Shown here one piece after another: positions 2,581-62,656 of a stretch of DNA of 64,000 nt. Positions within the stretch are counted from its first letter, which is position 1. The number at the start of each line of letters is the position of its first letter. The DNA comes from Eledone cirrhosa. Taxonomy: Eukaryota. The notes under the pieces are model-generated. The model worked only from the letters and a program-made list of their open reading frames with translations, ran no database searches and was not told the origin of the DNA. Both the position numbers and the translations under genes were made by a program. Location of the stretch: NCBI GenBank assembly GCA_964016885.1, contig OZ024743.1, positions 74,462,001 through 74,526,000 on the forward strand, written 5' to 3'.

Positions 2581-2869
2581 AAAACTTCAAGCCGGGGGAG
2601 GGGGGGGGGGATGATCGCATTATCCAAAACATGATCTCTTGAGCCGTTGACCTGCTAGAAATAACAGCCAAAGTTGCCCTAAATCAGCCCTCCCCCAGAC
2701 AGACTGGATGTAGTACTCCCTGTTATACGGGATGCTCACTGACTGAATATCTTTCATTGAGGGTTCAAATAGACTCACACACATACATCTACACACACAT
2801 ATACATGTATGCATGTGCACGACCTTGGGCGTAGAGACACAAACATATATTTACACATACATATACATT

Positions 2870-2919
<50 letters not shown>

Positions 2920-2990
2920 GTTTAAGAAGATCCCGTTAAGGGTGAAAGCAGAGATTCTTTGCTTAAACTTTAATCTGTTATTTAAATAAG

Positions 2991-3021
<31 letters not shown>

Positions 3022-3229
3022 CGTTTCTGAATTTGTTTAGTAAGATTCTTTATCTGAAAACGTGTGTTGAAACCGATATTGTTATACTTTGGGAGGGTCA
3101 TGTTGCCAATAAGAAACACACGCACCAGATGCTTTCACTTCAATTTATTATAATAAATTTATAAATTTAGGAATTTATAAATTTACGGTTGGTTGGTTGG
3201 TTCCACAACCAGATGGTTGTTTATATATT

Positions 3230-3272
3230 GTCAAAGTTCTTTCGTCACACATTCTGTGACCTCTTCAGTGAC
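3230..3272 (-). ncRNA. Minimal type I hammerhead ribozyme (PLE pLTR)
   Basis: Reverse complement of the 4658-4700 motif. Confidence 0.75.
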
Positions 3273-3540
3273 TGGGGATTCTTTTCTTTGTTTTTGTGCC
3301 TCTCCTTTGTTCTGTCCTACGCCATCTTGTTTCTATGTGTGTGTTGTGTGCTCAGTCTGCGCATGCGCCACATCCGGGTGTCTGTGTGTGTTTATATTCG
3401 TTTATTTATTTGTTTATTTTCATGTTACTGTAGGATTTGTTTTTTGTTATTAATGGTATCTAACCAGAGCTCTGTGTCTAGTACAGGTAATCGATGGTTT
3501 GGGGTGTTTGTTTGGGTAGTCTATAGTAATTCTAATACTC

Positions 3541-4456
3541 CATTCCCATTATGCCAAACCCATGACTTCCAAATATCTGATCCACCGAAACTCAGCTGTT
3601 TCGGACCATACCAAAATCAACATACTGATTGCGGATTTGGTACGGGTGATGAGAAACGTGTCCCGCATTTGCAACCCTGAAGAAGAACTAGAGAGACACA
3701 TACAACACTTCATCCACCGTATGCAGTTCTCTGGTTACAATCAGAGAGATAAAATCAGAGTGTATAGAGGAGCCAGAACCAAATGGGAAAAAATGGTAAA
3801 TAATGACACAAATGGAACCTGCCCCTTGTATAGGAGCAAATTTTGGAATAGAATAGAAAGAACTAGGAATGTGGCTAATAGAATAAACTCATGGTATGAT
3901 AGCAATAAATACCAGAGTATAATGTTCATAGATACAATCCCCTAGAGGTGAATTAGCTTACACATTTAGAAGGGCCCTAGATAAACATAAACTCAATATT
4001 AAGATAGTAGAAAGACCAGGTACCTCCATAAAAACACTTATTAGCAAGACATACCCTTTTCAAAGACCCACCTGTATAGATAAGAAATGTATAACCTGTA
4101 AATTAAGACCCCATATTAACTGTAAAACTAGAAATGTAGTATATAGCATAAGATGTACTGAAGGACAATGTAGAGATAAGAATATAGTGTACATAGGTGA
4201 GACAGCTCGTAGTGTAGGGGAACGGATAAATGAACACTGGCGAGACCTTCAAGATAGTAAAGAATCATCTGTACTCTACCAACATGCTAAAATAGAACAT
4301 AAGGGTAAATTAGAGAACATAGAAATAAAAATAGAATCTACACACAGTAAAGACGCAATGTTTAGACAAATCACAGAGGCAATAAACATAAAAGAATTAC
4401 AACCAAAATTAAATAGAAAACATGAGTGGAACAGCAACATCACAACTTACAATTAA
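3541..4456 (+). pseudogene. PLE polyprotein C-terminus: RT thumb, Cys-rich linker and GIY-YIG endonuclease (frameshift near 3943)
   Basis: HYAKPMTSKYLIHRNSA...; VERPGTSIKTLISKTYPF..C..C..C..C; NVVYSIRC...YIGETARSVGERINEH...RQITEAINI..LQPKLN. Confidence 0.88.
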
Positions 4457-4657
4457 GGACAAAATGAAAACACACACGCACATAGAACAAACAACCAACC
4501 AGTAACATGTAAATAAACAAATAAATAAACGAATATAAACAGACACAGACACCCGGATGTGGCGCATGCGCAGACTGAGCACACAACACACACACAGAAA
4601 CAAGATGGCGTAGGACAGAACAAAGGAGAGGCACAAAAACAAAGAAAAGAATCCCCA

Positions 4658-4700
4658 GTCACTGAAGAGGTCACAGAATGTGTGACGAAAGAACTTTGAC
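4658..4700 (+). ncRNA. Minimal type I hammerhead ribozyme (PLE pLTR)
   Basis: GTCA-CTGAAGA-G-GTCACA(gaatg)TGTGAC-GAAA-gaac-TT-TGAC. Confidence 0.75.
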
Positions 4701-4941
4701 AATATATAAACAACCATCTGGTTGTGGAACCAACCAACCGTAAATTTATAAATTCCTAAATTTATAAATTTATTATAATAAATTGAAGTGAAAGCATCTG
4801 GTGCGTGTGTTTCTTATTGGTCATGTTGCCAATAAGAAACACACGCACCAGATGCTTTCACTTCAATTTATTATAATAAATTTATAAATTTAGGAATTTA
4901 TAAATTTACGGTTGGTTGGTTGGTTCCACAACCAGATGGTT

Positions 4942-5315: not shown

Positions 5316-5334
5316 TATATATATATATATATAA

Positions 5335-5615
5335 AGGAGTGTGGTAAGTAACCAGGTGGACCATAATGCACCAGAGTACTCAACAGCTAAGCTCCGGCCG
5401 TTTCGACAACTAGTTCTGAACTGAGCTAGCTTTCGAAACGGTTGGAGCTCAGCCGTCTATTTATGGACGGCTATTTCGTTCAGAAATAGGCGTCGAAACG
5501 GCTTGAGCTCTGCCGTCGGGGTCCTGACACTTTTCCTATTACCCACTCTACTACCCAAAGTATCGAGTACTCTGGTGCGTTATGGTCCACCTGGTTCCTT
5601 ACCACACTCCCTTAG
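5335..5615. mobile_element. Fold-back remnant of the 42488-45167 PLE family end
   Basis: GTC-GAAA-CGGC..GAGCTC..GCCG-TC-GGGGT at ~5490-5522; tail GGTCCACCTGGTTCCTTACCACAC present in both orientations; other pieces at ~14460-14500 and 14840-14925. Confidence 0.7.
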
Positions 5616-5695
5616 TTATTTATATATATATCAAGGGAGGTCGGACTATACTTGTATCCCTATGTGTATTATTTACATGTAGGAACACATACTTT

Positions 5696-14427: not shown

Positions 14428-14921
14428 GATAGATCCAGTTTCAAACAAGTTAGACCACTACTCAACAGAGTACTCGATACTTGGGGTTGTTGAGTATGAC
14501 TATATTATAAAGAGTCGGAACCTGGTATATACAGATAGTTCCGGAACAACCTGTTGAGACGCCAATAGCTCGGCTGTTTGGTCCCGATTCATTATAATAT
14601 ATATTCGAATGAAACAGTTCTAGTCCTGTACAAGCTATTTCTATATTAAATTTTGTATATACTCTACTAATGTAATGCGCACCTTACTTTCTGGGGTTAA
14701 CCCCGATTGAACCCGGGACTCATATATACATATGTAAATATGTTATACCGTATTTCCCAGTGTCGAAGACGCTATTTGTTTTCCTAAAATAAGTCTCCAA
14801 AATCTACCATGCGTCCATATATATATAAGAAAATGTTTGAACCGACGGCAGAGCTTAAGCCGTTTCGACAGCTATTTCTGGTGGGTTATGGTTCATCTGG
14901 TTCCTTACCACACCCACTTCG

Positions 14922-16774
<1,853 letters not shown>

Positions 16775-37440: not shown

Positions 37441-37802
37441 GGAGGGTGTAACACATCGCATTGGTATTTATAGATACATCGGAGAATCAAGTGATTGAAA
37501 ACAGTAATACCAATAATAAAAGATAACAAACAGTAATAAAAGAATAAAGAAGTAAAAATGAAAATGATAAAGATGTAGAAAAAAAAAAATATATATATAT
37601 ACACATACACAGAAGTATCCACTGTAAGTTGTGGGGTCTATTCTGTATGAAGATCTCAATGTAATCCATATGTTGAAAATGTTGTTTTTTTTGTTGTTGT
37701 TTTTTTGTTTTTTTTTCATTGTTTTAACATATATATACACATATATATATATACATACATATATATATACATACATACATATATATATATATACATACAT
37801 AC

Positions 37803-37839
<37 letters not shown>

Positions 37840-37912
37840 CATATATATATACATATATATACATATATATATACATATATATACATACATACATATATAC
37901 ATATATATATAC

Positions 37913-41055
<3,143 letters not shown>

Positions 41056-41117
41056 ACTATATATATATATATTATTACTATATATATATATATTATTACT
41101 ATATATATATATATTAT

Positions 41118-41184
<67 letters not shown>

Positions 41185-41186
<2 letters not shown>

Positions 41187-41480
41187 AGAAAAAAAGAGAA
41201 TCAGTGTTGCGACCAATGGAATTTATTGGACATATTACAATCGTTTCTTTGGTGACCAGCTCGAGTCACGATCGATGTGATGATCGAACCTAACTTTCGA
41301 TCATCACATCGATCATGCCTCGAGCTAGTTGCCAGAAAAACGATTGTAATATGTCCAATAAATTCCATTCGTCGCAACACTGATTCTCTTTCTTTCTGTA
41401 ATATCATACTCTGCTCTATGAGAGCATCGAGTGCTCAAACGGCCTACCGCATACGGACGCTTTAAGCATCCAACACCAAT
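41185..41480. mobile_element. ~215-bp fold-back plus tail in (TA)n
   Basis: Centre ~41292; GAAA-cgattg-TA half-motif; tail with ACTC..GAGTGCT. Confidence 0.78.
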
Positions 41481-42452: not shown

Positions 42453-42487
<35 letters not shown>

Positions 42488-42491
<4 letters not shown>

Positions 42492-45167
42492 CGAAGGAAA
42501 TATGGTAAGGAACCAGGTGGACCATAACGCACCAAAGTACTCAATACTTAGGGTAGTAGAGTGGGTAATAGGAACGAGTAGGACCGCGACGGCTGGGCTC
42601 AAGCCGTTTCGACGGTTAATTCTGGACTAAATGAAAATTTTTATCCTGGTATATGAATAGCCGAGCTTCTCAGGGGGTAATTCCATATATGGTAAAAGTG
42701 ATTGTCACAAGGATTGGTCAAAAGTTTGTTGTTGAGACACATAATTCTATCATGGCAATTTGTGGAAGGAAGGGGTAGCTGGACCTGCCAGTAGAAGAAA
42801 GAGGGAGAGGGAGTGGAGGAAACCCAGTCGTGCGTTGATAGTGCCAACTACAGCAGGGCAGGAGGTCAAGCAAGTTTACTAGGGAGGAGGAGGGGGAGGG
42901 GGAGGAAGTCGAAACAATAAGTAAATCAATATGGAGTAAATATATAGAAGAATATCAAGAATGTTAAAAATATAAAAAAACAATTTCTGGTTACTATTAC
43001 CTAACCACAGTCATGAAGTCTCTCACTGGTACTGCTAAACTATAGAAAAGTTTACTAGGTGGGACGGAATTGTAGTGAGACCCTTTTAAGAGTTAGTAGT
43101 AATCAACCGAGTATATCTTACGGTGACAGGTCAACAAGTGGGGGGGGGCAAAATACTAAAGAAACTACCACGAAATAATAATTCAGAGTCCCGAAACTAA
43201 TACAAAATAATTGTTTCTAACCTAGGCACAAGGCCAGCAACCACCCAGTGCAAAAAATAAACTAATACGAAATAATAATTCAGAATCCCGAAAATGAATA
43301 CTAATACTATCTCTAAGGGTGCCGCTACGATACAAAAATTCTAGTGCAAACTACATAAATGCTCGTACGAAGTATATGAAAAATTTGATACGGAAAATTA
43401 ATTCAGAATCCCCCCACCCCCCACCCCCCACTCCCCACTCCCCCCAAAAATAAATACTGATATACGAGAAATTAAAGCAGAAATACCACTAAGGAATGTA
43501 GAATGCACGGAAATGGGGCAGCCATCGGATAAGAAAGCAAGTATCTGGGGTCTATCACATCTGCTATAAAAAGTGGAGTCGGCCAATTCTATCATAGAAT
43601 AGGGGATGGGGTGGGGGTACTGAGGCTACAAAGTACCGAGGGGCTGCCGCGGGTGGGCGAGAAAGTGAAAAGGACGACGACAAAGAAGGAGGACTGGGGT
43701 GGAAAGACTAGGAAGGGATTGGGGAAAGAAGGAAATATAGAGGAAACGATAAAAAGATATAAAATAAGATCTTACGTCTACCTTTGCAAGCAGGGGTTAC
43801 CCATTACAAAGTCGGCAAGTGGGATGTTACAGCCCTTGTATGCCCCTCCCACGTCATTATGGGGTTTGAGGGCGAGGTAAGTCCTAAGCAATCTGTGTTT
43901 GCATGCAGTTACCAGTTCGTCTTTCTTGTTTAGGAGTTGGTCCGTCGAAAACAGCATTTGTAAAGTTTCCTCCGAGCATAAATTGCACGGACGGCGTCCT
44001 CCCGTGTAAGAGTTGGCTCTGGACAGGAGGTGCAACTGTCCTGATGGATCCATTTTCCCCCTCGACAACAGATGCAGATATCGTAATGTGATCTACCAGT
44101 GCAACGTGAGGACGGACACCTCCAACAAAGCTTATATAGAATTAACCGCATGTGACTTCAAGACCCGGTTATACCAACACAGACATACTTTCCGAAACCC
44201 GGCCGGCGTCACGCCACCACACTTTCGGTCCACATCTGGGACCTCAAAGATAACAATATTACCTATGATCTTACTTGGAGCTTACTGTTTTAAATATATT
44301 TAAAACTGAATTAATTTTCCGTATCAAATTTTTCATATACTTCGTACGGGCATTTATGTAGTTTGCACTAGAATTTTTGTATCGTAGCGGCACCCTTAGA
44401 GATAGTATTAGTATTCATTTTCGGGATTCTGAATTATTATTTCGTATTAGTTTATTTTTTGCACTGAGTGTTTGCTGGCCTTGTGCCTAGGTTAGAAACA
44501 ATTATTTCGTATTAGCTTCGGGACTCTGAATTATTATTTGGTGGTAGTTTCTTTAGTATTTTGTGCGCCGCCCCCCCCCCCCCCACACACACACACTTGT
44601 TGACCTGTCACCGTAAGATATACTCGGTTGATTACTACTAACTCTTAAAATGGTTTCACTACAATTCCGTCCCACCTAGTAAACTTTTCTATAGTTTAGC
44701 AGTACCAGTGAGAGACTTCATGACTGTGGTTAGGTAATAGTAACCAGAAATTGTTTTTTTATATTTTTAACATTCTTGGTATTCTTCTATATATTTACTC
44801 CATATTGATTTACTTATTGTTTCGACTTCCTCTCCCTTCCTCCTCCTCCTCCCTAGTATACTTGCTTGACCTCCTGCCCTGCTGTAGTTGGCACTATCAA
44901 CGCACGACTGGGTTTCCTCCACTCCCACTCCCTCTTTCTTCTACTGGCAGGTTCAGCTACCCCTTCCTTCCACAAATTGCCATGATAGAATTATGTGTCT
45001 CAACAACAAACTTTTGACCAATCCTTGTGACAATCACTTTTACCATATATGGAATTACCTCCTGAGAAGCTCGGCTATTCATATACCAGGATAAAAATGT
45101 TCATTTAGTCCAGAATTAGCCGTCGAAACGGCTTGAGCTCAGCCGTTGGGGTCCTACTCGTTCCTAT
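42488..45167. mobile_element. Penelope-like element with ~830-bp inverted arms and a split, inverted GIY-YIG domain
   Basis: 42568-43400 is the reverse complement of ~44307-45167; CNC..PLDNRC..NVIYQCNV..AYIELT..FKTRLYQH on +; PCNLCSEET..LLNKKDELVTACKH on -. Confidence 0.9.
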
Positions 45168-45856
45168 ATATATAATATATATATATATACACAGAACATA
45201 CATATATATAAAATATATACATATAATATATATATATATATACATAAAATACACACATACATAAAATATATACACACATAAAACATACATACATACATAT
45301 ATATAAAACACACATACATATACATATATATATAAAATATATACAGAAATATACATACGTATATATAAAATACACATACATAAACATATAAAATATATAC
45401 ATATATACACATGATATATATATATATACCATTTATGTTAGGCTGTTGAAAGAGTTATTCATGTATATAGGTATCGGTTTATATTAAGTTTAAGATCATG
45501 GCGAAAAAAATTCAGTGGTAAGGTTTGACCGACCACCGGGATGCAGGAGAAGGTTTATACGACCGAGTTGATTCAATATATGAAAATAAAGGAACATTTC
45601 TTAAGCGCAACCCAGATACTTAAACCAGTTAACAAAAGAATATATCGGTCATTTTTGTTCTGCATATGAAAAGGGGGTTTTTCCCTGAAATATTAAGTTG
45701 AAATATACCGGGTAAAAAACATTGCTTTGTTTTATCATATTTGTCATCCTTTGCGCTTTATATATTTCTGCTGCATTGTACTGGCTTTCTGAAGTAGTTA
45801 CCAATCAAGTATTACTGACACACAAACACTCCCAAAACACACACACGCATACATAC

Positions 45857-49802: not shown

Positions 49803-51117
49803 CAAAGAAAATATGATCATCAGAACTGTCAGCGTACAACAAATACATTGCCCACAATACTTATGCTGTGCCAATTCTAACGCCAACATTTGGCCTGCTG
49901 AACTGGTCATTGCAAGAACTAAGTGAGATGGATGTTAGAACTCGAAAACTTCTCAGTGTTACTGGGAACTTTAACATCAATGGTGATGTGGATAGGCTAT
50001 ACTTCTCACGCAAGGAAGGTGGCCGGGTCTAAAATCAATATTAACAACATATGAGGCCCGGATAGTAACACTGAAGCAACACCTTCAACAGAGGAAAAAG
50101 GTTGGCAACCATCTTGCCCAGGTTTATGAGCATGAAAAAAAAAATATCATTAGAATAGCCACTGATCTGGAGGAGAGATATGGAATAAAGCCTGATATAA
50201 ATCTCTCACCCAGAGAAATCGGAAGATCCTATTCAATGTTCAAACAAGATTTTAAAAATGACCAATTTACAGAAAAAGTTGTGCATGGATACTTGAGGCG
50301 TAAAACACAGACCATAGAGGGGATAAACCACTCAAAAATCCTGGCATGGAGTTCCGACAAGTTTATGACATCACACCTTGAGGGATATCTCTATGCAATA
50401 CAGGAACAAGAACTCCCTACCAAATATCTGCTGCACAAAAGAGGAGGGTCAGCACCTGACAATAAATGTAGGCTATGTGAAACAAAGATCGAGGATGTAA
50501 GCCACATTGTTGCCAGCTGCGAAAGAATGTCATCTCGCTACTACCTCCCCATGAGACACGATGGGATAGCTAGAACCATCTGGAACGCACTTCGGAAAAC
50601 AAAATTAACAACAAGCTAGGAAGAATATATTGAGACAGATGGCACTAAGGAATACTGGTGGAACCTAAAAATAAAAACTGCCACCAAATTAAAGCACAAC
50701 CGGCCTGATATTGTTGTTTGGGACCACACATTGAAAACGTGTTCTGTTGTGGAGATCAGCTGCCCACTTGATGTAAACGTTGTCAGAAAAATACAGGAGA
50801 AGGAGGACATCTACAGACCATTGATGAGGAGTTTACAAATCCAGTATCCAGGATACACCTTTAGCTTCATACCCATCATTATTGGAGCTACGGGTTATAT
50901 ACCAACCCGCTTGGACCAAAGTATGACTGAACTTGGATTTGCGGACAAAAAGCGCAGCTCCCTAATTCATAGTCTACAAAGGGCTGCGATAGCTGGCACC
51001 TTCAAAATTTGCAAAACATTCTTGCGATTCAAGGGATGACAATTTCTTTTCTTTTACAACCTTGCCACCAGGAAGGTGGCCGGTTAAAAAAAATGTACTC
51101 GAAATTAAGAGAAAGAG
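49803..51117 (+). mobile_element. 5'-truncated R4/Dong-like RLE retrotransposon inserted in (TACA)n
   Basis: NTYAVPIL..VDRLY.SRKEGG (RT thumb); CRLC..EDVSHIVASC zinc knuckle; RHD; HNRPDIVV..VVEISCP..EKEDIY RLE motifs; (TACA)n on both flanks. Confidence 0.9.
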
Positions 51118-51341
51118 ATACATACATACATACATACATACATACATACATACATACATACATACATACATACATACATACATACATACATACATACATA
51201 CCAGGGGCGAAGGGTGCGTGCATGCAACGCATGCAGTTCATGCATTATAGAATCTTGAGTTGATCAATTATGTCGGTTGGAGCAAGCAGAATTTTGGCTG
51301 CTTACTAAATCGTAGACACATAAAAAGATAACACACACACC

Positions 51342-54659: not shown

Positions 54660-55690
54660 GGTGAGCTATGAGGCCCACTTACCAGCACTTTCCCTTCCAC
54701 CCACACACGCCAGCCACCCACACTTGATGCCGCTCGGTGCCCCAGTCCCCGACCCCACGCCCCGCCCCAACCCCCATCCTTCCAAGCCGACACCTGCAGT
54801 ACTTGCAGCACCACTAACAAACGAAAGAGGGGCCAGAACTGTTTGGGGTGCGGCTGCTTCCACCACCTCACCTGCGTTGGCTTGACTCGTCGAGCTTCCA
54901 ATGCCCCCGCACGTCTTTCAAGCCACGGTCGTCTGGCGCACCACCAGCTGACACAGCGAGCTTGCCTGACGCCCGAGCCTCGCTGGTCAACATCGCTCGG
55001 CTCAGGCGGCTCCGGAAGATCTCACTTAGGATCCCGAGAGCGGTACGGGTGTCGGTAGCCGATGCCCTCGCTTCCTCGATTGAGAGCGCCCTGGACTCCA
55101 ATCAAGCCAGTGACTGGGAGCGGCTGTTCTTTTTCGCCTCACTCGCACTCGGCCTCCCCAGCTCTGGCGGCCTCCAGCCGCTTTCCTGACACCACAGTGC
55201 CGCCCGCATTCCACGCCATGTTGCTCTCAACGAGGTCATTAAGCATGGCTTGGACGCTGCAGGCTTCCCTTCCCAGCTCGAGCCGGTAGGGCTGGATCGA
55301 GGGGACGGCAAAAGGCGAGATGGCATGACCATCTTCCCGTTCCACGGGGGCAAACCTCTCGTCTGGGATGCCACTTGCACCGACACTTTCTGCAGCCGCA
55401 ACCTGGTGCAGTCTGCGACTGACCCAGGTTCTGCTGCACGTCGGGCTGAGGGGGCCAAACTCTTCAAATACCGGTCGCTCTCCGACAGGTTTGCAGTCGT
55501 ATCCCTGGCAGTGGAGTCTTTTGGTATCCCCGGCCCCAGGGCTACCTCCTTACTCACCACCATAGGCGCTGAGCTGGCCAGCCGCTGGTGTGAGCCTCGC
55601 AAGTTGGAGTGGATCTTCCAGCGCGTCTCCCTCGCTCGCCGTCCTCCGGGGAAACGCCTTCTCCATCCTGTCCGCCGGGGCTGTGGGTGG
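54660..55690 (+). mobile_element. GC-rich, internally deleted CRE-like RLE retrotransposon (PHD finger, N-terminal region and RLE; no RT)
   Basis: CSTC..CLGC..HLTC..FQCPR; RIPRAVR..W.RLFFF; RHVALNEVI..LEPVGL..DGKR.DGMT..LVWDATC..K..KY..AVESFG. Confidence 0.8.
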
Positions 55691-56566
55691 GCCCCATCGC
55701 GTACCGTTGTAGTTGGTGTAGAAGAAACAGGAAGACAACATCTAAACTAAAACTTTACATTGTTACCTATTTTAATGATAGATAGATAGATAAATAGAGA
55801 CAGAGAGAGAGAGAGACTGGGGATGGAGGTGTATATCTAAATATGCATATAAATATATATATATATATATATGTATATATATTTACATGCATATTTAGAT
55901 ATATATATTAATATATATATTTATATTAATATATATATATATATATATATATAAAAACAAATAACGAAACGGTACATCTACATATGTATACGTGTGTGTA
56001 TTCATATACATACTAGTATTTCAGTATACATATATGGATGTACATCTTTAACTTAATTGTTTAAGCGTCAGTCATACAAAAGTGAGTTACAAACGAAACG
56101 AAATTTAATTTCGTTTCGTTATTTGTTTTTATCGTCTCCGTTGAACCGGTACTTACTCACACTCTATGCAAATTAGTCTGCCCACTACTAATTTTCATAG
56201 AAAAAGCATATAACGATATGTGCTTTTACGATTCTCTAGAAAGGCCGGAAGATAGGTAAATATTGCTGATGAGTTGTAACAACAACGAAACTAGTTCAAT
56301 GTTCCTTGTCTGGCTTTCTGGAGAATAGAGGAAAGGTGTTTCCTCAAAAACCAGTATGACTCTAAAAACCGGTTTGTCTGTGTGTTTACATACAGAATAG
56401 CTGGCCACTCACAGTAAAGTGACCAGTGAAAAAACTTGGTACATCTACATATGTATACGTGTGTGTATTCATATACATACTAGTATTTCAGTATACATAT
56501 ATGGATGTACATCTTTAACTTAATTGTTATATATATACATATATTAATATAAATATCTAAATACGC

Positions 56567-58511: not shown

Positions 58512-60358
58512 GTAAATATATATATTAATATATATATATCTAAATATGCATATAAATATATATAGTATTAAGGGTACTATTTATGGTTATGTATGCAATA
58601 AGACCTTTGATGGTAATATATTATATATACACAAACCCTAAATAGTGAGAGATAGTCTTTAATTACTATCCTATTACCAGTAAGATAAATAGCTCAATGT
58701 AATAACATCAGTTGTTATACAGAGCAGTTATATAGAGATTACAGTAATCAAAGTTCAGTTTAAGTCATTTATTTGCTTACAATTGTTTCCTCCAAACCGA
58801 GGTTTGGATTCTTCGGAGCAGCTATTTATAACATACTTGACCTCCTTTTCAACCCAAGAGACACATAAAACATATGCGCATATTGATCAACAGTGGGGTG
58901 ACATTCATCAAATGAAATAGCATGGCAATTTACATATAAAGTGTTACATGATAAAAATAAAATAAAAACAAGAGTGAAAATAAGAGTGAAAATAAAGATA
59001 AACATGAAGCGTTGGCAGTCTATGATGATAAAGCAAGAGGAAAGCTTAGAGTAGTCAGTGTATGAAGCAATCTCCCGTGTAGCATGCACGCTTGTCTTAT
59101 CTATACATGATTAGAGTGCGTCAGAATGATATTTGCTGGGTCAGGCAGTTGAAGCAGGCGATCGATCTTATTATATAGGCTGAATTATTAAGTCATTTAT
59201 TCTCATACATCTGTATGATATACAGTCTCGGATGCGGGGAAACACCAAAATATCAAAAACCTTCAACATACTATAAACCTTATTGTATCGTAGGCAAGGT
59301 CGTACCACTGTCCTTGCTCACACCACCACTCACATAATCCACGAGACGCAATATATATATAGAGAACACGCGTCTATCGTATAATTCGCAGTGGTTCAGC
59401 ATATAGTCAAGCTATAAACCGTATCCAGTCGGTTCTTAATTAATATATCATGCTGTCCAAATTCCGGAAGTGCCTGAATGATTAAGGGGAATTAATGCGT
59501 AAGGGGAGGTAACTAGCTAGTTATTTTAGTTACATTACTATGCTAAACTACATTAATGGTGATTCAAATACGTGCCTATCAAGTGAAGTTATAACTAATA
59601 TCTAGAGTATGGTACCCATTTATAGGTTAGAGAGTTGTTCATTAAGAAGTACAAGGGTGTATATATTAGGATGATTACCAACCATTAATTAAGGGGTGTC
59701 ATATCTGAACGTTCTATAAGAGGAGTCAGACTCTCAAGTCACTGCTCCATGCAAATGTAATATAACAGTAGGCCCTGGTATGGTCCCACTATTATATATG
59801 CCACCCGGTAGGCTCCGGGTCATTGCTTGCCTGCATCTCCAGTAAATCTTCGGTATGGTCCGGAGATCCGATCTCTCATATAAATGCACTAGTCTGGCCA
59901 TCAGGTAATAGACAACCCCCGTCTCAAATATAAATCAATTATGTATCACATCTCCAAGCTAGAGTGGAGTCTATTAATAGGTATTAAAGGAGTCCACATC
60001 AAGATGATTACGTGCATAATTCAATGAACTGATCACTTACAGTATATAATCACTTAACAATACGATTATCTATCTAATCATCAGTCTATCTCTTGGTGGT
60101 AATCCGTGCACAGGACTATGCTATCACAGCCAGTACCGTGTCCCCAGTTTATACTAATCTTATATTTGTGCAATGCAGAATAAGTAGTCCACGGTCGAGA
60201 TATCAGTATTAGAGGTACAAGGGGGTGTTCCCAGGGTAGGTGGCACTAAAATGCTGTCAGTATTATCTTTAGAGTATAGAGATGGGTGTGGATGTGAGGT
60301 GTAAGGTGTGCTACTGATGTTAATTGCTATGGGTGGTGCCGGTTCCAGTCTGACATTA

Positions 60359-61861
60359 TTATATATAGGGTTTAAAGTTTTGGAACGAGTGTCGGAGGCG
60401 GTGTTGGCAATTTGCGAACACTTCTGATATTTTATTAAGGAGATTATGTTTAGAGAAGATGATAGTATGGGTCTCTAGTAGACAGAGGTTACAAAATTTA
60501 TCGGGTGGTTTGTACGATGTTGCACTACCTACCACTTCCCATTTAAGTGTATATATTTTATTTTTAGTTTTTAGATAGTGTATGTAGCTAGATAGTGAAG
60601 TGGAGTTGGCTAGACTGTGTTTTTTGAAAGAGTGGAGGTGCGAATTGTATCTAGTTTTGAAGCAGTTAGAAGTGGGGCCTATGTAGGTTTCAGAAGAGCT
60701 GTTAGTTGTGACTGTACATGAGTATATGATATCCTTGGTTAAGCATTTTTTATCTAAAGGGCAGGTTCTACTTGATCTACAGTTACAATTACTCTGGGTG
60801 CTAGTCTGCCGGTTACTATGCTGTGTAGAAGTTTGGAGGTTAGCTATAGGGTTATGGTTATGCGGGTTGTGGTACGCAGCGTTAATGTTTACACTAGTGC
60901 TATTACTATTATTTCCATTGATATTACGGTTATTTGTTATAATGTTACTTTGACTGTTATTTTGAATGTTATTTTGAAGGTTTATCGACCGTTGTGATTT
61001 AGTTTGTTGGAAGTAAGAATTAATTTTTCTTTTATTTGTACTAGCTATGTGGTATGCTAAGTTAGGCGTAGTAGAGTATGAGATCTTAATAGTGTTTTTG
61101 TTTAAAAGGCCGTGGTACCTGTGGCCGGATGGGAAGTGTTTATCTAGTAGTGAGAAGAAAGCCCTAGGAAGGTTGGTAGAGACGTTTAAGTTGAAAGGAG
61201 GGTTGAAAAATGTATTATTTCTTCTTCTATTTCTGTTTTTTATGTCTGGTGATTTGTTTCCTTTAATGTTCCTATGGTCATTTCTGTGGTGCGGGTTACT
61301 CTTGTTGTTACAATCCCTATTAGTGTGTGTGCAGTTGCTATTCTTATTATTAAATTTTCCCATGGACATGTTGTGTGAAATGATGTTGTAGCTATGTGTT
61401 TTTGTAGGTAGGAACTCTATCCCTGTATTATGGCCTGATCTAGCTAATGCCTGATTATAATACTGCGAGTTATTGTTAAATGTGTTTATGTCATAGGATA
61501 GATTAGAGATTCTATTAGATACTCCCTTAGAGATAGAGTTCAATATAGATTTAGGGTGGTTAGACTTGGTATCTACGTAAATGAGTTTTTCATTAGGTTT
61601 GTGGAAAGGTGCATATATCATTGAGTCTAAGTAGAGTGTGGCGTCTAGGAAGTTGACGTTTTTGGTGTTTTTGTCCATGGTAATACTAAGGTTAAAGTTT
61701 TTGAATGTTTTGTGCAATAGTTTTCTAGTCCTTTCTATATTGAATTTTTTATAGTCTATAAGTAGAAGTGCATCGTCGCGATACAAACCACCGCTGAGGT
61801 ACGGAAGCTCCCTGTGGATTAGGTTAAGTAAGTATAGGCCAACCAAGTCAGTGACCTGCGC
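60359..61861 (-). CDS. PLE polyprotein, 5'-truncated but uninterrupted: RT motifs 4-7, thumb, Cys-rich linker, GIY-YIG endonuclease
   Basis: AQVTDLVGLYLL, GLYRDDAL, VNFLDAT, SNHP, FFNPPF, CNC..CPLDKKC, IIY..TYIG..FKTRYNSH, CNLC..E, LLNK..CQH. Confidence 0.92.
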   Translation of the reverse strand, partial: AQVTDLVGLYLLNLIHRELPYLSGGLYRDDALLLIDYKKFNIERTRKLLHKTFKNFNLSITMDKNTKNVNFLDATLYLDSMIYAPFHKPNEKLIYVDTKSNHPKSILNSISKGVSNRISNLSYDINTFNNNSQYYNQALARSGHNTGIEFLPTKTHSYNIISHNMSMGKFNNKNSNCTHTNRDCNNKSNPHHRNDHRNIKGNKSPDIKNRNRRRNNTFFNPPFNLNVSTNLPRAFFSLLDKHFPSGHRYHGLLNKNTIKISYSTTPNLAYHIASTNKRKINSYFQQTKSQRSINLQNNIQNNSQSNIITNNRNINGNNSNSTSVNINAAYHNPHNHNPIANLQTSTQHSNRQTSTQSNCNCRSSRTCPLDKKCLTKDIIYSCTVTTNSSSETYIGPTSNCFKTRYNSHLHSFKKHSLANSTSLSSYIHYLKTKNKIYTLKWEVVGSATSYKPPDKFCNLCLLETHTIIFSKHNLLNKISEVFANCQHRLRHSFQNFKPYI

Positions 61862-62511
61862 CTTCCGGAATTTGGACAGCATGATATATTAATTAAGAAC
61901 CGACTGGATACGGTTTATAGCTTGACTATATGCTGAACCACTGCGAATTATACGATAGACGCATGTTCTCTATATATATATTGCGTCTCATGGATTATGT
62001 GAGTGGTGGTGTGAGCAAGGACAGTGGTACGACCTTGCCTACGATACAATAAGGTTTATAGTATGTTGAAGGTTTTTGATATTTTGGTGTTTCCCCGCAT
62101 CCGAGACTGTATATCATACAGATGTATGAGAATAAATGACTTAATAATTCAGCCTATATAATAAGATCGATCGCCTGCTTCAACTGCCTGACCCAGCAAA
62201 TATCATTCTGACGCACTCTAATCATGTATAGATAAGACAAGCGTGCATGCTACACGGGAGATTGCTTCATACACTGACTACTCTAAGCTTTCCTCTTGCT
62301 TTATCATCATAGACTGCCAACGCTTCATGTTTATCTTTATTTTCACTCTTATTTTCACTCTTGTTTTTATTTTATTTTTATCATGTAACACTTTATATGT
62401 AAATTGCCATGCTATTTCATTTGATGAATGTCACCCCACTGTTGATCAATATGCGCATATGTTTTATGTGTCTCTTGGGTTGAAAAGGAGGTCAAGTATG
62501 TTATAAATAGC

Positions 62512-62558
62512 TGCTCCGAAGAATCCAAACCTCGGTTTGGAGGAAACAATTGTAAGCA
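62512..62558 (+). ncRNA. Type I hammerhead, U4C core
   Basis: TGCT-CCGAAGA-a-TCCAAACC(tc)GGTTTGGA-g-GAAA-caattg-TA-AGCA. Confidence 0.78.
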
Positions 62559-62656
62559 AATAAATGACTTAAACTGAACTTTAATTACTGTAATCTCTAT
62601 ATAAATATATATATATATATATTAATATAAATATATATATATAAATATATATATTA

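What the first reader, a model, noticed from the sequence alone, without database searches (positions are those of the whole stretch)
42488..45167. Contiguous inversion plus template jump inside a PLE endonuclease
Seen: the plus piece (~44026-44288) ends ...TYDLTWSLL and the minus piece (from ~44025) continues LSRANSY..., so the two are adjacent in the element with ~4-nt overlap (CTGT) but lie head-to-head. The plus piece then jumps to a 3' terminal arm (44307-45167). Established: L1 twin priming gives contiguous inversions joined to flanking DNA. Inference: here the second primer first copied the element's 3' end and then jumped internally, suggesting both target ends prime reverse transcription. 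That would also explain the small fold-backs.
Basis: partly seen in the sequence, partly recalled or inferred. Interest (0 to 1): 0.75.

Follow-up and report, generated by a model that had tools for sequence, protein, structure and literature searches.

The report
Two-ended Penelope insertion with coupled skip
This dead copy of a Penelope-type jumping gene has an internal piece flipped exactly where the opposite arm ends, a coincidence that recurs far above chance in other copies, likely because both cut DNA ends start copying the element's RNA and one copy then skips to where the other stopped.

Summary
Observation confirmed. The element is a truncated Hydra-like Penelope retroelement in a (TA)n tract: a 1.54-kb inverted piece ending in an 81-nt tail, a 265-nt endonuclease piece abutting it in element coordinates (overlap +4 to -1 once microhomology is allowed), a 20-nt palindrome and an 860-nt arm. 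Both junctions are unique in the genome. Two-ended priming is well supported: 84 of 95 two-armed insertions pair one tailed with one untailed end. The scan noted two-ended priming before on other DNA of this genome, and it fits published in vitro data. Whether the skip is a reverse-transcriptase hop on the RNA (about 50%) or hairpin processing of the joined cDNAs (about 40%) is unresolved: offsets are almost all small overlaps, unlike L1, and arm-less cases lack the (TA)n flank. Reads could not test the assembly. New variant of a known kind.

The parts
42455..42487 (.). (TA)n target tract, left
   Evidence: sequence; 274 of 302 family termini abut (TA)n
42488..42567 (-). 81-nt tail; outer end is the long (L) terminus
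   Evidence: in tandem copy L062 the tail runs on into the 5' leader of the ORF
42488..44026 (-). continuous piece, element 3578 to 2052 (3' UTR and endonuclease C-terminus); inferred cDNA 1
   Evidence: 94% to L062
42580..42680 (-). hammerhead-like motif with variant core (left copy)
   Evidence: not found by Rfam
44024..44026 (.). 3-nt microhomology at the head-to-head joint
44024..44288 (+). inverted internal piece, element 1790 to 2055 (CxCX5C linker and GIY-YIG core)
   Evidence: 97% to L062
44287..44306 (.). perfect 20-nt AT-rich palindrome at the skip junction (617 element nt skipped)
   Evidence: no 11-mer source in the flanks or references
44306..45167 (+). 3' arm, element 2673 to 3497, ending at the short (S) terminus; inferred first part of cDNA 2
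   Evidence: 20 substitutions in 839 aligned nt against the left arm
45057..45154 (+). hammerhead-like motif (right copy)
45168..45190 (.). (TA)n target tract, right
   Evidence: sequence

Best explanation
This is one insertion of a Hydra-like Penelope element in which both cut ends of a (TA)n target likely primed reverse transcription at two fixed sites 81 nt apart, and the second cDNA likely stalled and hopped to free RNA just beyond the end of the first. Shown: layout, two terminus types, their pairing, recurrence of coupled breakpoints. Inferred: the left end primed at L and copied 3578 to 2052; the right end primed at S, copied 3497 to 2673, added a short snap-back, re-annealed at 2053-2055 and copied on to 1790; the two cDNA 3' ends were joined by 3-nt microhomology. 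Small overlaps in other copies would come from cDNA 1 displacing 0-60 nt of cDNA 2 before it stalled.
For: 84 of 95 two-armed insertions have one L and one S end (43 with the short arm L, 41 with it S; P 5e-15 against independent choice). Arms of one insertion are closer than the subfamily median in 65 of 77. 8 of 99 breakpoints lie within 10 nt of the other strand's end (0.72 expected, P 5e-7) and 18 within 60 nt (4.3 expected). Counting only arm-then-jump events and leaving out the doubtful L121, 3 of 42 lie within 10 nt (0.29 expected, P 0.003). L147, L161 and L149 repeat the layout with offsets -1, +6, +8; L257 and L365 with +38. Coupled copies are not older than plain ones (4.0% vs 3.9%, P 0.30) and include very young ones. 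Stem length does not fall with age (rho -0.02). Intact long-stem, short-loop insertions are not depleted (9 of 20 vs 8.9 expected). L019 has offset 0 with a 2.5-kb loop and 0.29-kb stem. 4 of 42 jumps go backwards, which deletion cannot make. In vitro a Penelope protein cuts and extends both strands from two start sites (PMC11167929). L1 shows 'twin priming and 3' switching' (bioRxiv 10.1101/2024.08.27.596794).
Against: Offsets are one-sided: 0 at -60..-11 (1.85 expected) and 10 at +11..+60 (1.76 expected), whereas L1 twin priming gives 66% deletions and 17% duplications. Of 12 coupled cases with no terminal arm, none of the 11 flanks read has a (TA)n tract, although 91% of ordinary termini do. 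11 of 18 coupled cases imply a precursor with stem over 1.7 kb and loop under 320 nt or close to it, and almost no intact insertion has a loop under 150 nt, as hairpin instability would predict. If one RNA serves both primers, ordinary arms need displacement over kilobases, which sits uneasily with a stall after 0-60 nt. The replication sample alone is not significant at 10 nt. Events were curated by hand and the null is uniform.
Confidence: 0.5

Rival explanations
1. Both ends primed and both cDNAs were complete. After their 3' ends were joined, each strand carried a long inverted repeat in single-stranded form; it snapped into a hairpin during second-strand synthesis, was stalled or cut near the loop-stem border, and repair removed the inner part (or all) of one arm in the same insertion event.
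For: Explains offsets of 0 to +60 with none on the gap side, the lost (TA)n flank in arm-less cases, the lack of an age effect and the long-stem, short-loop geometry of most coupled cases.
Against: L019, L063 and L149 have stems of 0.3-0.6 kb with loops of 0.5-2.8 kb, poor hairpins; intact long-stem, short-loop insertions persist at about the expected rate; L161 needs two separate skips in one arm.
Confidence: 0.27
2. An ordinary two-armed insertion later lost 617 nt from one arm through a replication or repair event at the hairpin's loop-stem border.
For: Same final layout; microhomology and templated filler are typical of end-joining repair (recalled); L147 and L161 are old (arm divergence 6.7% and 6.1%).
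Against: No age effect and no erosion of stems with age; this copy is younger than the median (2.4% vs 3.8%) and keeps an 860-bp inverted repeat; no depletion of at-risk insertions with loops up to 550 nt.
Confidence: 0.14
3. The coincidence at this locus is chance, or the locus is misassembled.
For: About 0.7 of 99 events would fall within 10 nt by chance; the finding was picked for its coincidence; reads did not bridge either junction.
Against: The layout recurs in independent loci and subfamilies; the arms differ at 20 sites; both junctions have event-like microhomology or filler and are unique.
Confidence: 0.06
4. One primer only: a cDNA (or antisense RNA) folds back on itself to make the inverted arm, as proposed for rotifer Penelopes.
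For: PMC3846280 proposes self-priming from palindromes at inverted junctions; a few true fold-backs exist here (L133, L259, L258).
Against: A cDNA begun at S holds no tail, yet 43 of 95 insertions have a short tailed arm on a long untailed piece; here neither single cDNA would hold the template for the opposite piece.
Confidence: 0.03

Closest known systems
Hydra clade of C-terminal-endonuclease Penelope-like elements (Craig et al. 2021, PMC8557442; passages read)
   Same: RT followed by GIY-YIG, DKT, CxCX5C linker, CxxC and CxH beside the conserved E and N, no CCHH, (TA)n targets, inverted 5'-truncated arm, tail at one end
   Different: Tail is 81 nt, not 30-40; unit 3.1-3.6 kb; RWR for RWK; hammerhead core is a variant; coupled internal inversions are not mentioned in the passages read
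[quoted passage not shown]
   Same: Both target ends extend on element RNA, head-to-head joint by microhomology, inversion point close to the other cDNA's end, rare switches of one cDNA to uncopied RNA
   Different: Here both primers start at fixed 3'-terminal sites and normally give overlapping arms; two-ended products are the majority; offsets are overlaps, not mainly gaps; no poly(A), no definable target duplication
Poseidon of Anolis in vitro (Frangieh et al. 2024, PMC11167929; main text parts 1-2 of 4 read)
   Same: Two start sites bounding a tail, AT-rich target, both strands cut and extended, predicted dimer
   Different: Other clade; the paper found no difference in start site between strands and did not study pairing of the two ends or internal skips
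Adineta vaga Penelopes (Arkhipova et al. 2013, PMC3846280; parts 1-4 of 5 read)
   Same: Head-to-head inverted pLTRs, optional tail on one of them, palindromes at junctions, microhomology deletions
   Different: Explained there by self-priming on an antisense template; too few copies for breakpoint statistics

Membership tests
Hydra-clade PLE | Single ORF, RT then C-terminal GIY-YIG endonuclease | tested here: met
   Translations of L062, L063, L067 show YRDD RT core followed by VIY...YIG; Pfam gave no hit
Hydra-clade PLE | DKT in place of DKG | tested here: met
   HSDKTGN in L062 and L063
Hydra-clade PLE | N-terminal RWK motif | tested here: inconclusive
   RWR in L062, RWS in L063
Hydra-clade PLE | CxCX5C linker; no CCHH inside GIY-YIG; CxxC and CxH beside E and N | tested here: met
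   CNCPDGSIC, one Cys only between VIY and YIG, CNLC, CKH
Hydra-clade PLE | Insertion into (TA)n | tested here: met
   274 of 302 termini
Hydra-clade PLE | Canonical hammerhead ribozyme in the terminal repeat | tested here: inconclusive
   Three stems and GUC can be drawn, 88% of cells paired but no covariation above shuffles; canonical core in 1 of 230 motif hits, U3-A8 type in 79, C3-A8 in 150 (hits include repeated loci); Rfam none
Hydra-clade PLE | Groups with Hydra RTs in a phylogeny | not tested
   No reference Hydra proteins were fetched
L1-type twin priming | Inverted piece abuts the other cDNA's end in element coordinates | tested here: met
   Offset +4 to -1 here; enrichment in family
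L1-type twin priming | Second primer is the bare target end annealing internally | tested here: not met
   An 860-nt terminal arm lies between target and inverted piece; arm-less cases lack the (TA)n flank
L1-type twin priming | Mostly short deletions at the inversion point | tested here: not met
   0 events at -60..-11, 10 at +11..+60
L1-type twin priming | Microhomology between the two cDNA ends | tested here: met
   3 nt here; 108 of 189 head-to-head joints overlap by 1 nt or more
L1-type twin priming | One RNA molecule serves both primers | not testable with these tools
   L+S pairing and arm similarity fit but two RNAs from one source locus are not excluded
L1-type twin priming | Target-site duplication flanking the insertion | tested here: inconclusive
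   Both ends lie in (TA)n, so none can be defined

The most novel reading that the evidence does not exclude
Penelope-like elements insert by a programmed two-headed reverse transcription: one protein dimer on one RNA primes both ends of a double-strand cut at two fixed sites, the two polymerases race along the same template, and collisions leave a footprint in which one cDNA hops to exactly where the other stopped. Twin priming, an accident in L1, would be the normal pathway of this class and would explain tail, inverted arms, mini-palindromes and coupled inversions together.
Probability: 0.4. Interest if true: 0.72.

Novelty: new variant of a known kind. Interest (0 to 1): 0.52.

Why it matters
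How Penelope-like elements, the sister group of telomerase, make their inverted and tailed insertions is named as open in PMC8557442 and PMC11167929. Strict pairing of the two terminus types rules out simple fold-back on a sense template, and the coupling of internal breakpoints to the other strand's end is the kind of footprint expected if both strands work on a shared template. It gives concrete predictions for the existing in vitro system. The locus itself is a dead transposon fragment with no evident host function.

Tried and rejected
Reads: three contig sets of one sample, one of another organism and one RAD run were laid on the junctions; none bridged them in the listed rows, but these may be other individuals and the lists were cut, so this is no evidence either way. 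An amplified sub-lineage carrying the rearrangement: rejected, each junction occurs once. L002 seemed to share the junction but its arm stops about 20 nt earlier and it is another subfamily. L150 first looked like direct priming from a TA end, but only two letters of TA remain, so it does not discriminate. L121 may be a separate mini-element 113 nt away, so tests were run with and without it. A template for the palindromic filler was not found. Pfam and Rfam gave nothing relevant. Single folds of the two hairpins past S and L were not better than shuffles (z -0.4 and -0.9). A sequence-based duplicate filter wrongly dropped 14 new loci and was replaced by coordinates. Four more kb of flank at five coupled loci held no further arm. 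[quoted passage not shown]

Full report
What is there. The window lies in a 3.0-Gb animal assembly rich in (AT)n. A near-complete copy of the family, L062, gave a 3578-nt unit with an RT-endonuclease ORF. In its coordinates the finding reads: minus strand 42488-44026 = 3578 to 2052; plus strand 44024-44288 = 1790 to 2055; a 20-nt palindrome; plus strand 44306-45167 = 2673 to 3497. The two endonuclease pieces are colinear in 29 of 30 loci fetched with a junction query. The stated 4-nt overlap shrinks to between +4 and -1 because 3 nt are shared with the start of the plus piece and 2 nt with the palindrome. Each junction is present once in the genome, so this is a single event.

The family. Protein motifs match the Hydra clade as described in PMC8557442 (passages): DKT, CxCX5C linker, no CCHH, CxxC and CxH, and (TA)n targets (274 of 302 termini). 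No phylogeny was run. A 25-mer of the tail has 23,393 exact matches; three variants of a 26-mer in the endonuclease have 617, 182 and 25. Copies end at one of two fixed places, S (3497) or L (3578), 81 nt apart. Of 68 tailed ends in the tail sample, 42 are about 200-nt head-to-head minis with an S partner, 2 have an L partner, 23 are lone short pieces and 1 is long; most arms stop at 3433-3446 and a smaller group near 3475-3487, by a predicted hammerhead cut. Earlier notes of this scan reached the same reading on other DNA; they are leads, not independent support.

Do both ends prime? Among 95 long two-armed insertions with both ends visible, 84 have one L and one S end, 6 are S+S and 5 L+L (P 5e-15 against independent choice at one half). 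In 43 the short arm carries the tail and the long piece does not, which a cDNA folding back on itself cannot make. Arms of one insertion differ by a median 3.8%, against 6.5% for the same-reference group and 4.1% for the nearest other copy, consistent with one source. In vitro a Poseidon protein cuts and extends both strands from two start sites that define the tail (PMC11167929). I put two-ended priming at about 0.9.

Are breakpoints coupled? Discovery sample: 217 distinct insertions, 148 with a head-to-head joint, 103 discontinuity rows. I dropped 17 rows cut by the locus edge and 15 judged alignment artefacts or inherited indels, and added 2 by hand, leaving 73 events; the window itself was excluded. 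For each, the offset is the 3' end of the piece minus the 5' end of the opposite strand, with a null of uniform landing inside the possible range. 7 of 73 fell within 10 nt (0.59 expected, P 1e-6). Replication: 71 new insertions, 46 two-armed, 37 non-edge rows, 12 dropped, 25 events: 1 within 10 nt (0.13 expected, P 0.13), 4 within 50 nt (0.64, P 0.003). Combined, with one wrongly dropped row restored and L303 corrected for a later insertion that split it: 8 of 99 within 10 nt (0.72 expected), 18 within 60 nt (4.3). For arm-then-jump events only, without L121, 3 of 42 lie within 10 nt (0.29 expected). L147, L161 and L149 copy the window's layout; L257 and L365 do so with 38-nt overlaps. Most events (81 of 99) are not coupled.

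What makes the skip? The layout has two readings. [quoted passage not shown] As a deletion, a plain two-armed insertion lost the inner part of one arm from the loop-stem border. Against a later deletion: coupled copies are no older than plain ones (P 0.30), stems do not shorten with age, and long-stem insertions with loops up to 550 nt are intact at the expected rate (9 of 20 vs 8.9). Backward jumps (4 of 42) show that template switching occurs, and L019 is coupled exactly although its hairpin would be poor. Against a pure hop: offsets are overlaps (10 at +11..+60, none at -60..-11), opposite to L1; none of 11 flanks read at arm-less coupled cases has (TA)n, versus 16 of 57 for plain arm-less copies and 91% for ordinary termini; and most coupled cases imply long stems with short loops, while almost no intact insertion has a loop under 150 nt. 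These points fit hairpin processing of the freshly joined cDNAs in the same insertion event. I give the hop 0.5, processing at insertion 0.27, later deletion 0.14, chance or misassembly 0.06, single-primer fold-back 0.03.

Small fold-backs. Of 189 head-to-head joints, 108 show microhomology, 12 are blunt, 37 have 1-7 nt and 32 have 8 nt or more of filler; only L133 and L259 hold long palindromic stems. The common small palindromes are two short cDNAs, so two-ended priming explains them, but not as fold-backs. The window's 20-nt palindrome is a real snap-back-like filler whose direction of synthesis cannot be read from the sequence.

Novelty. Inverted arms and a one-sided tail are known (PMC3846280, PMC8557442), as are two-strand extension in vitro and L1 twin priming. 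Five searches listed no paper on twin priming or coupled breakpoints in Penelope elements; key subscription reviews could not be read. Four look-ups in the scan's notes showed two-ended priming several times but no count of coupled skips in long coding copies. Verdict: real feature, new variant of a known kind, interest 0.52.

Noticed in passing
window 58560-62604: A second, very young two-armed element of another family: arms 58728-59470 and 61862-62604 are 99.6% identical, with a 509-aa RT-plus-endonuclease frame at 60359-61888 (minus) that has the CxCX5C linker and an asparagine-rich insert; the left arm runs about 170 nt further out than the right.
   Followed up: partly
window 5316-5631 and 14818-14959: Two mini-copies of the same family, head-to-head with tail pieces, one with extra internal rearrangement.
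   Followed up: partly
window 3106-4820 and 14933-16733: Two-armed fragments of a Penelope/Poseidon-type family (GIY-YIG with two cysteines inside...YSIRCTEGQC...YIGET).
   Followed up: no
element 3395-3483 in L-series loci: Hammerhead-like core differs by subfamily: CUGAGAAG (147 hits), UUGANAAG (78), canonical CUGAGGAG once; the commonest form lacks the 3-8 pair yet some cDNAs end at the predicted cut.
   Followed up: partly
L240, L241, L242 (G000:C6:36.41-36.45 Mb); L393, L394 (G000:C4:352.0-352.3 Mb): The same insertion structure repeated at nearby places, likely segmental duplications; counted once.
   Followed up: no
L248, L208, L163: Backward jumps that duplicate upstream-copied parts inside one arm.
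   Followed up: partly
L062:3440-3518; L071 flank: Palindromes in non-element DNA directly at the 5' junction of arm-less copies, possibly snap-back of the unprimed target end.
   Followed up: no
window 37628-41280: A roughly 1.6-kb unit is repeated in tandem (same ORF start at 39330 and 40939; same flank at 38503 and 40100).
   Followed up: no
window 49996-51140 and 55190-55750: Fragments of non-LTR elements with restriction-like endonuclease motifs (family names not tested).
   Followed up: no
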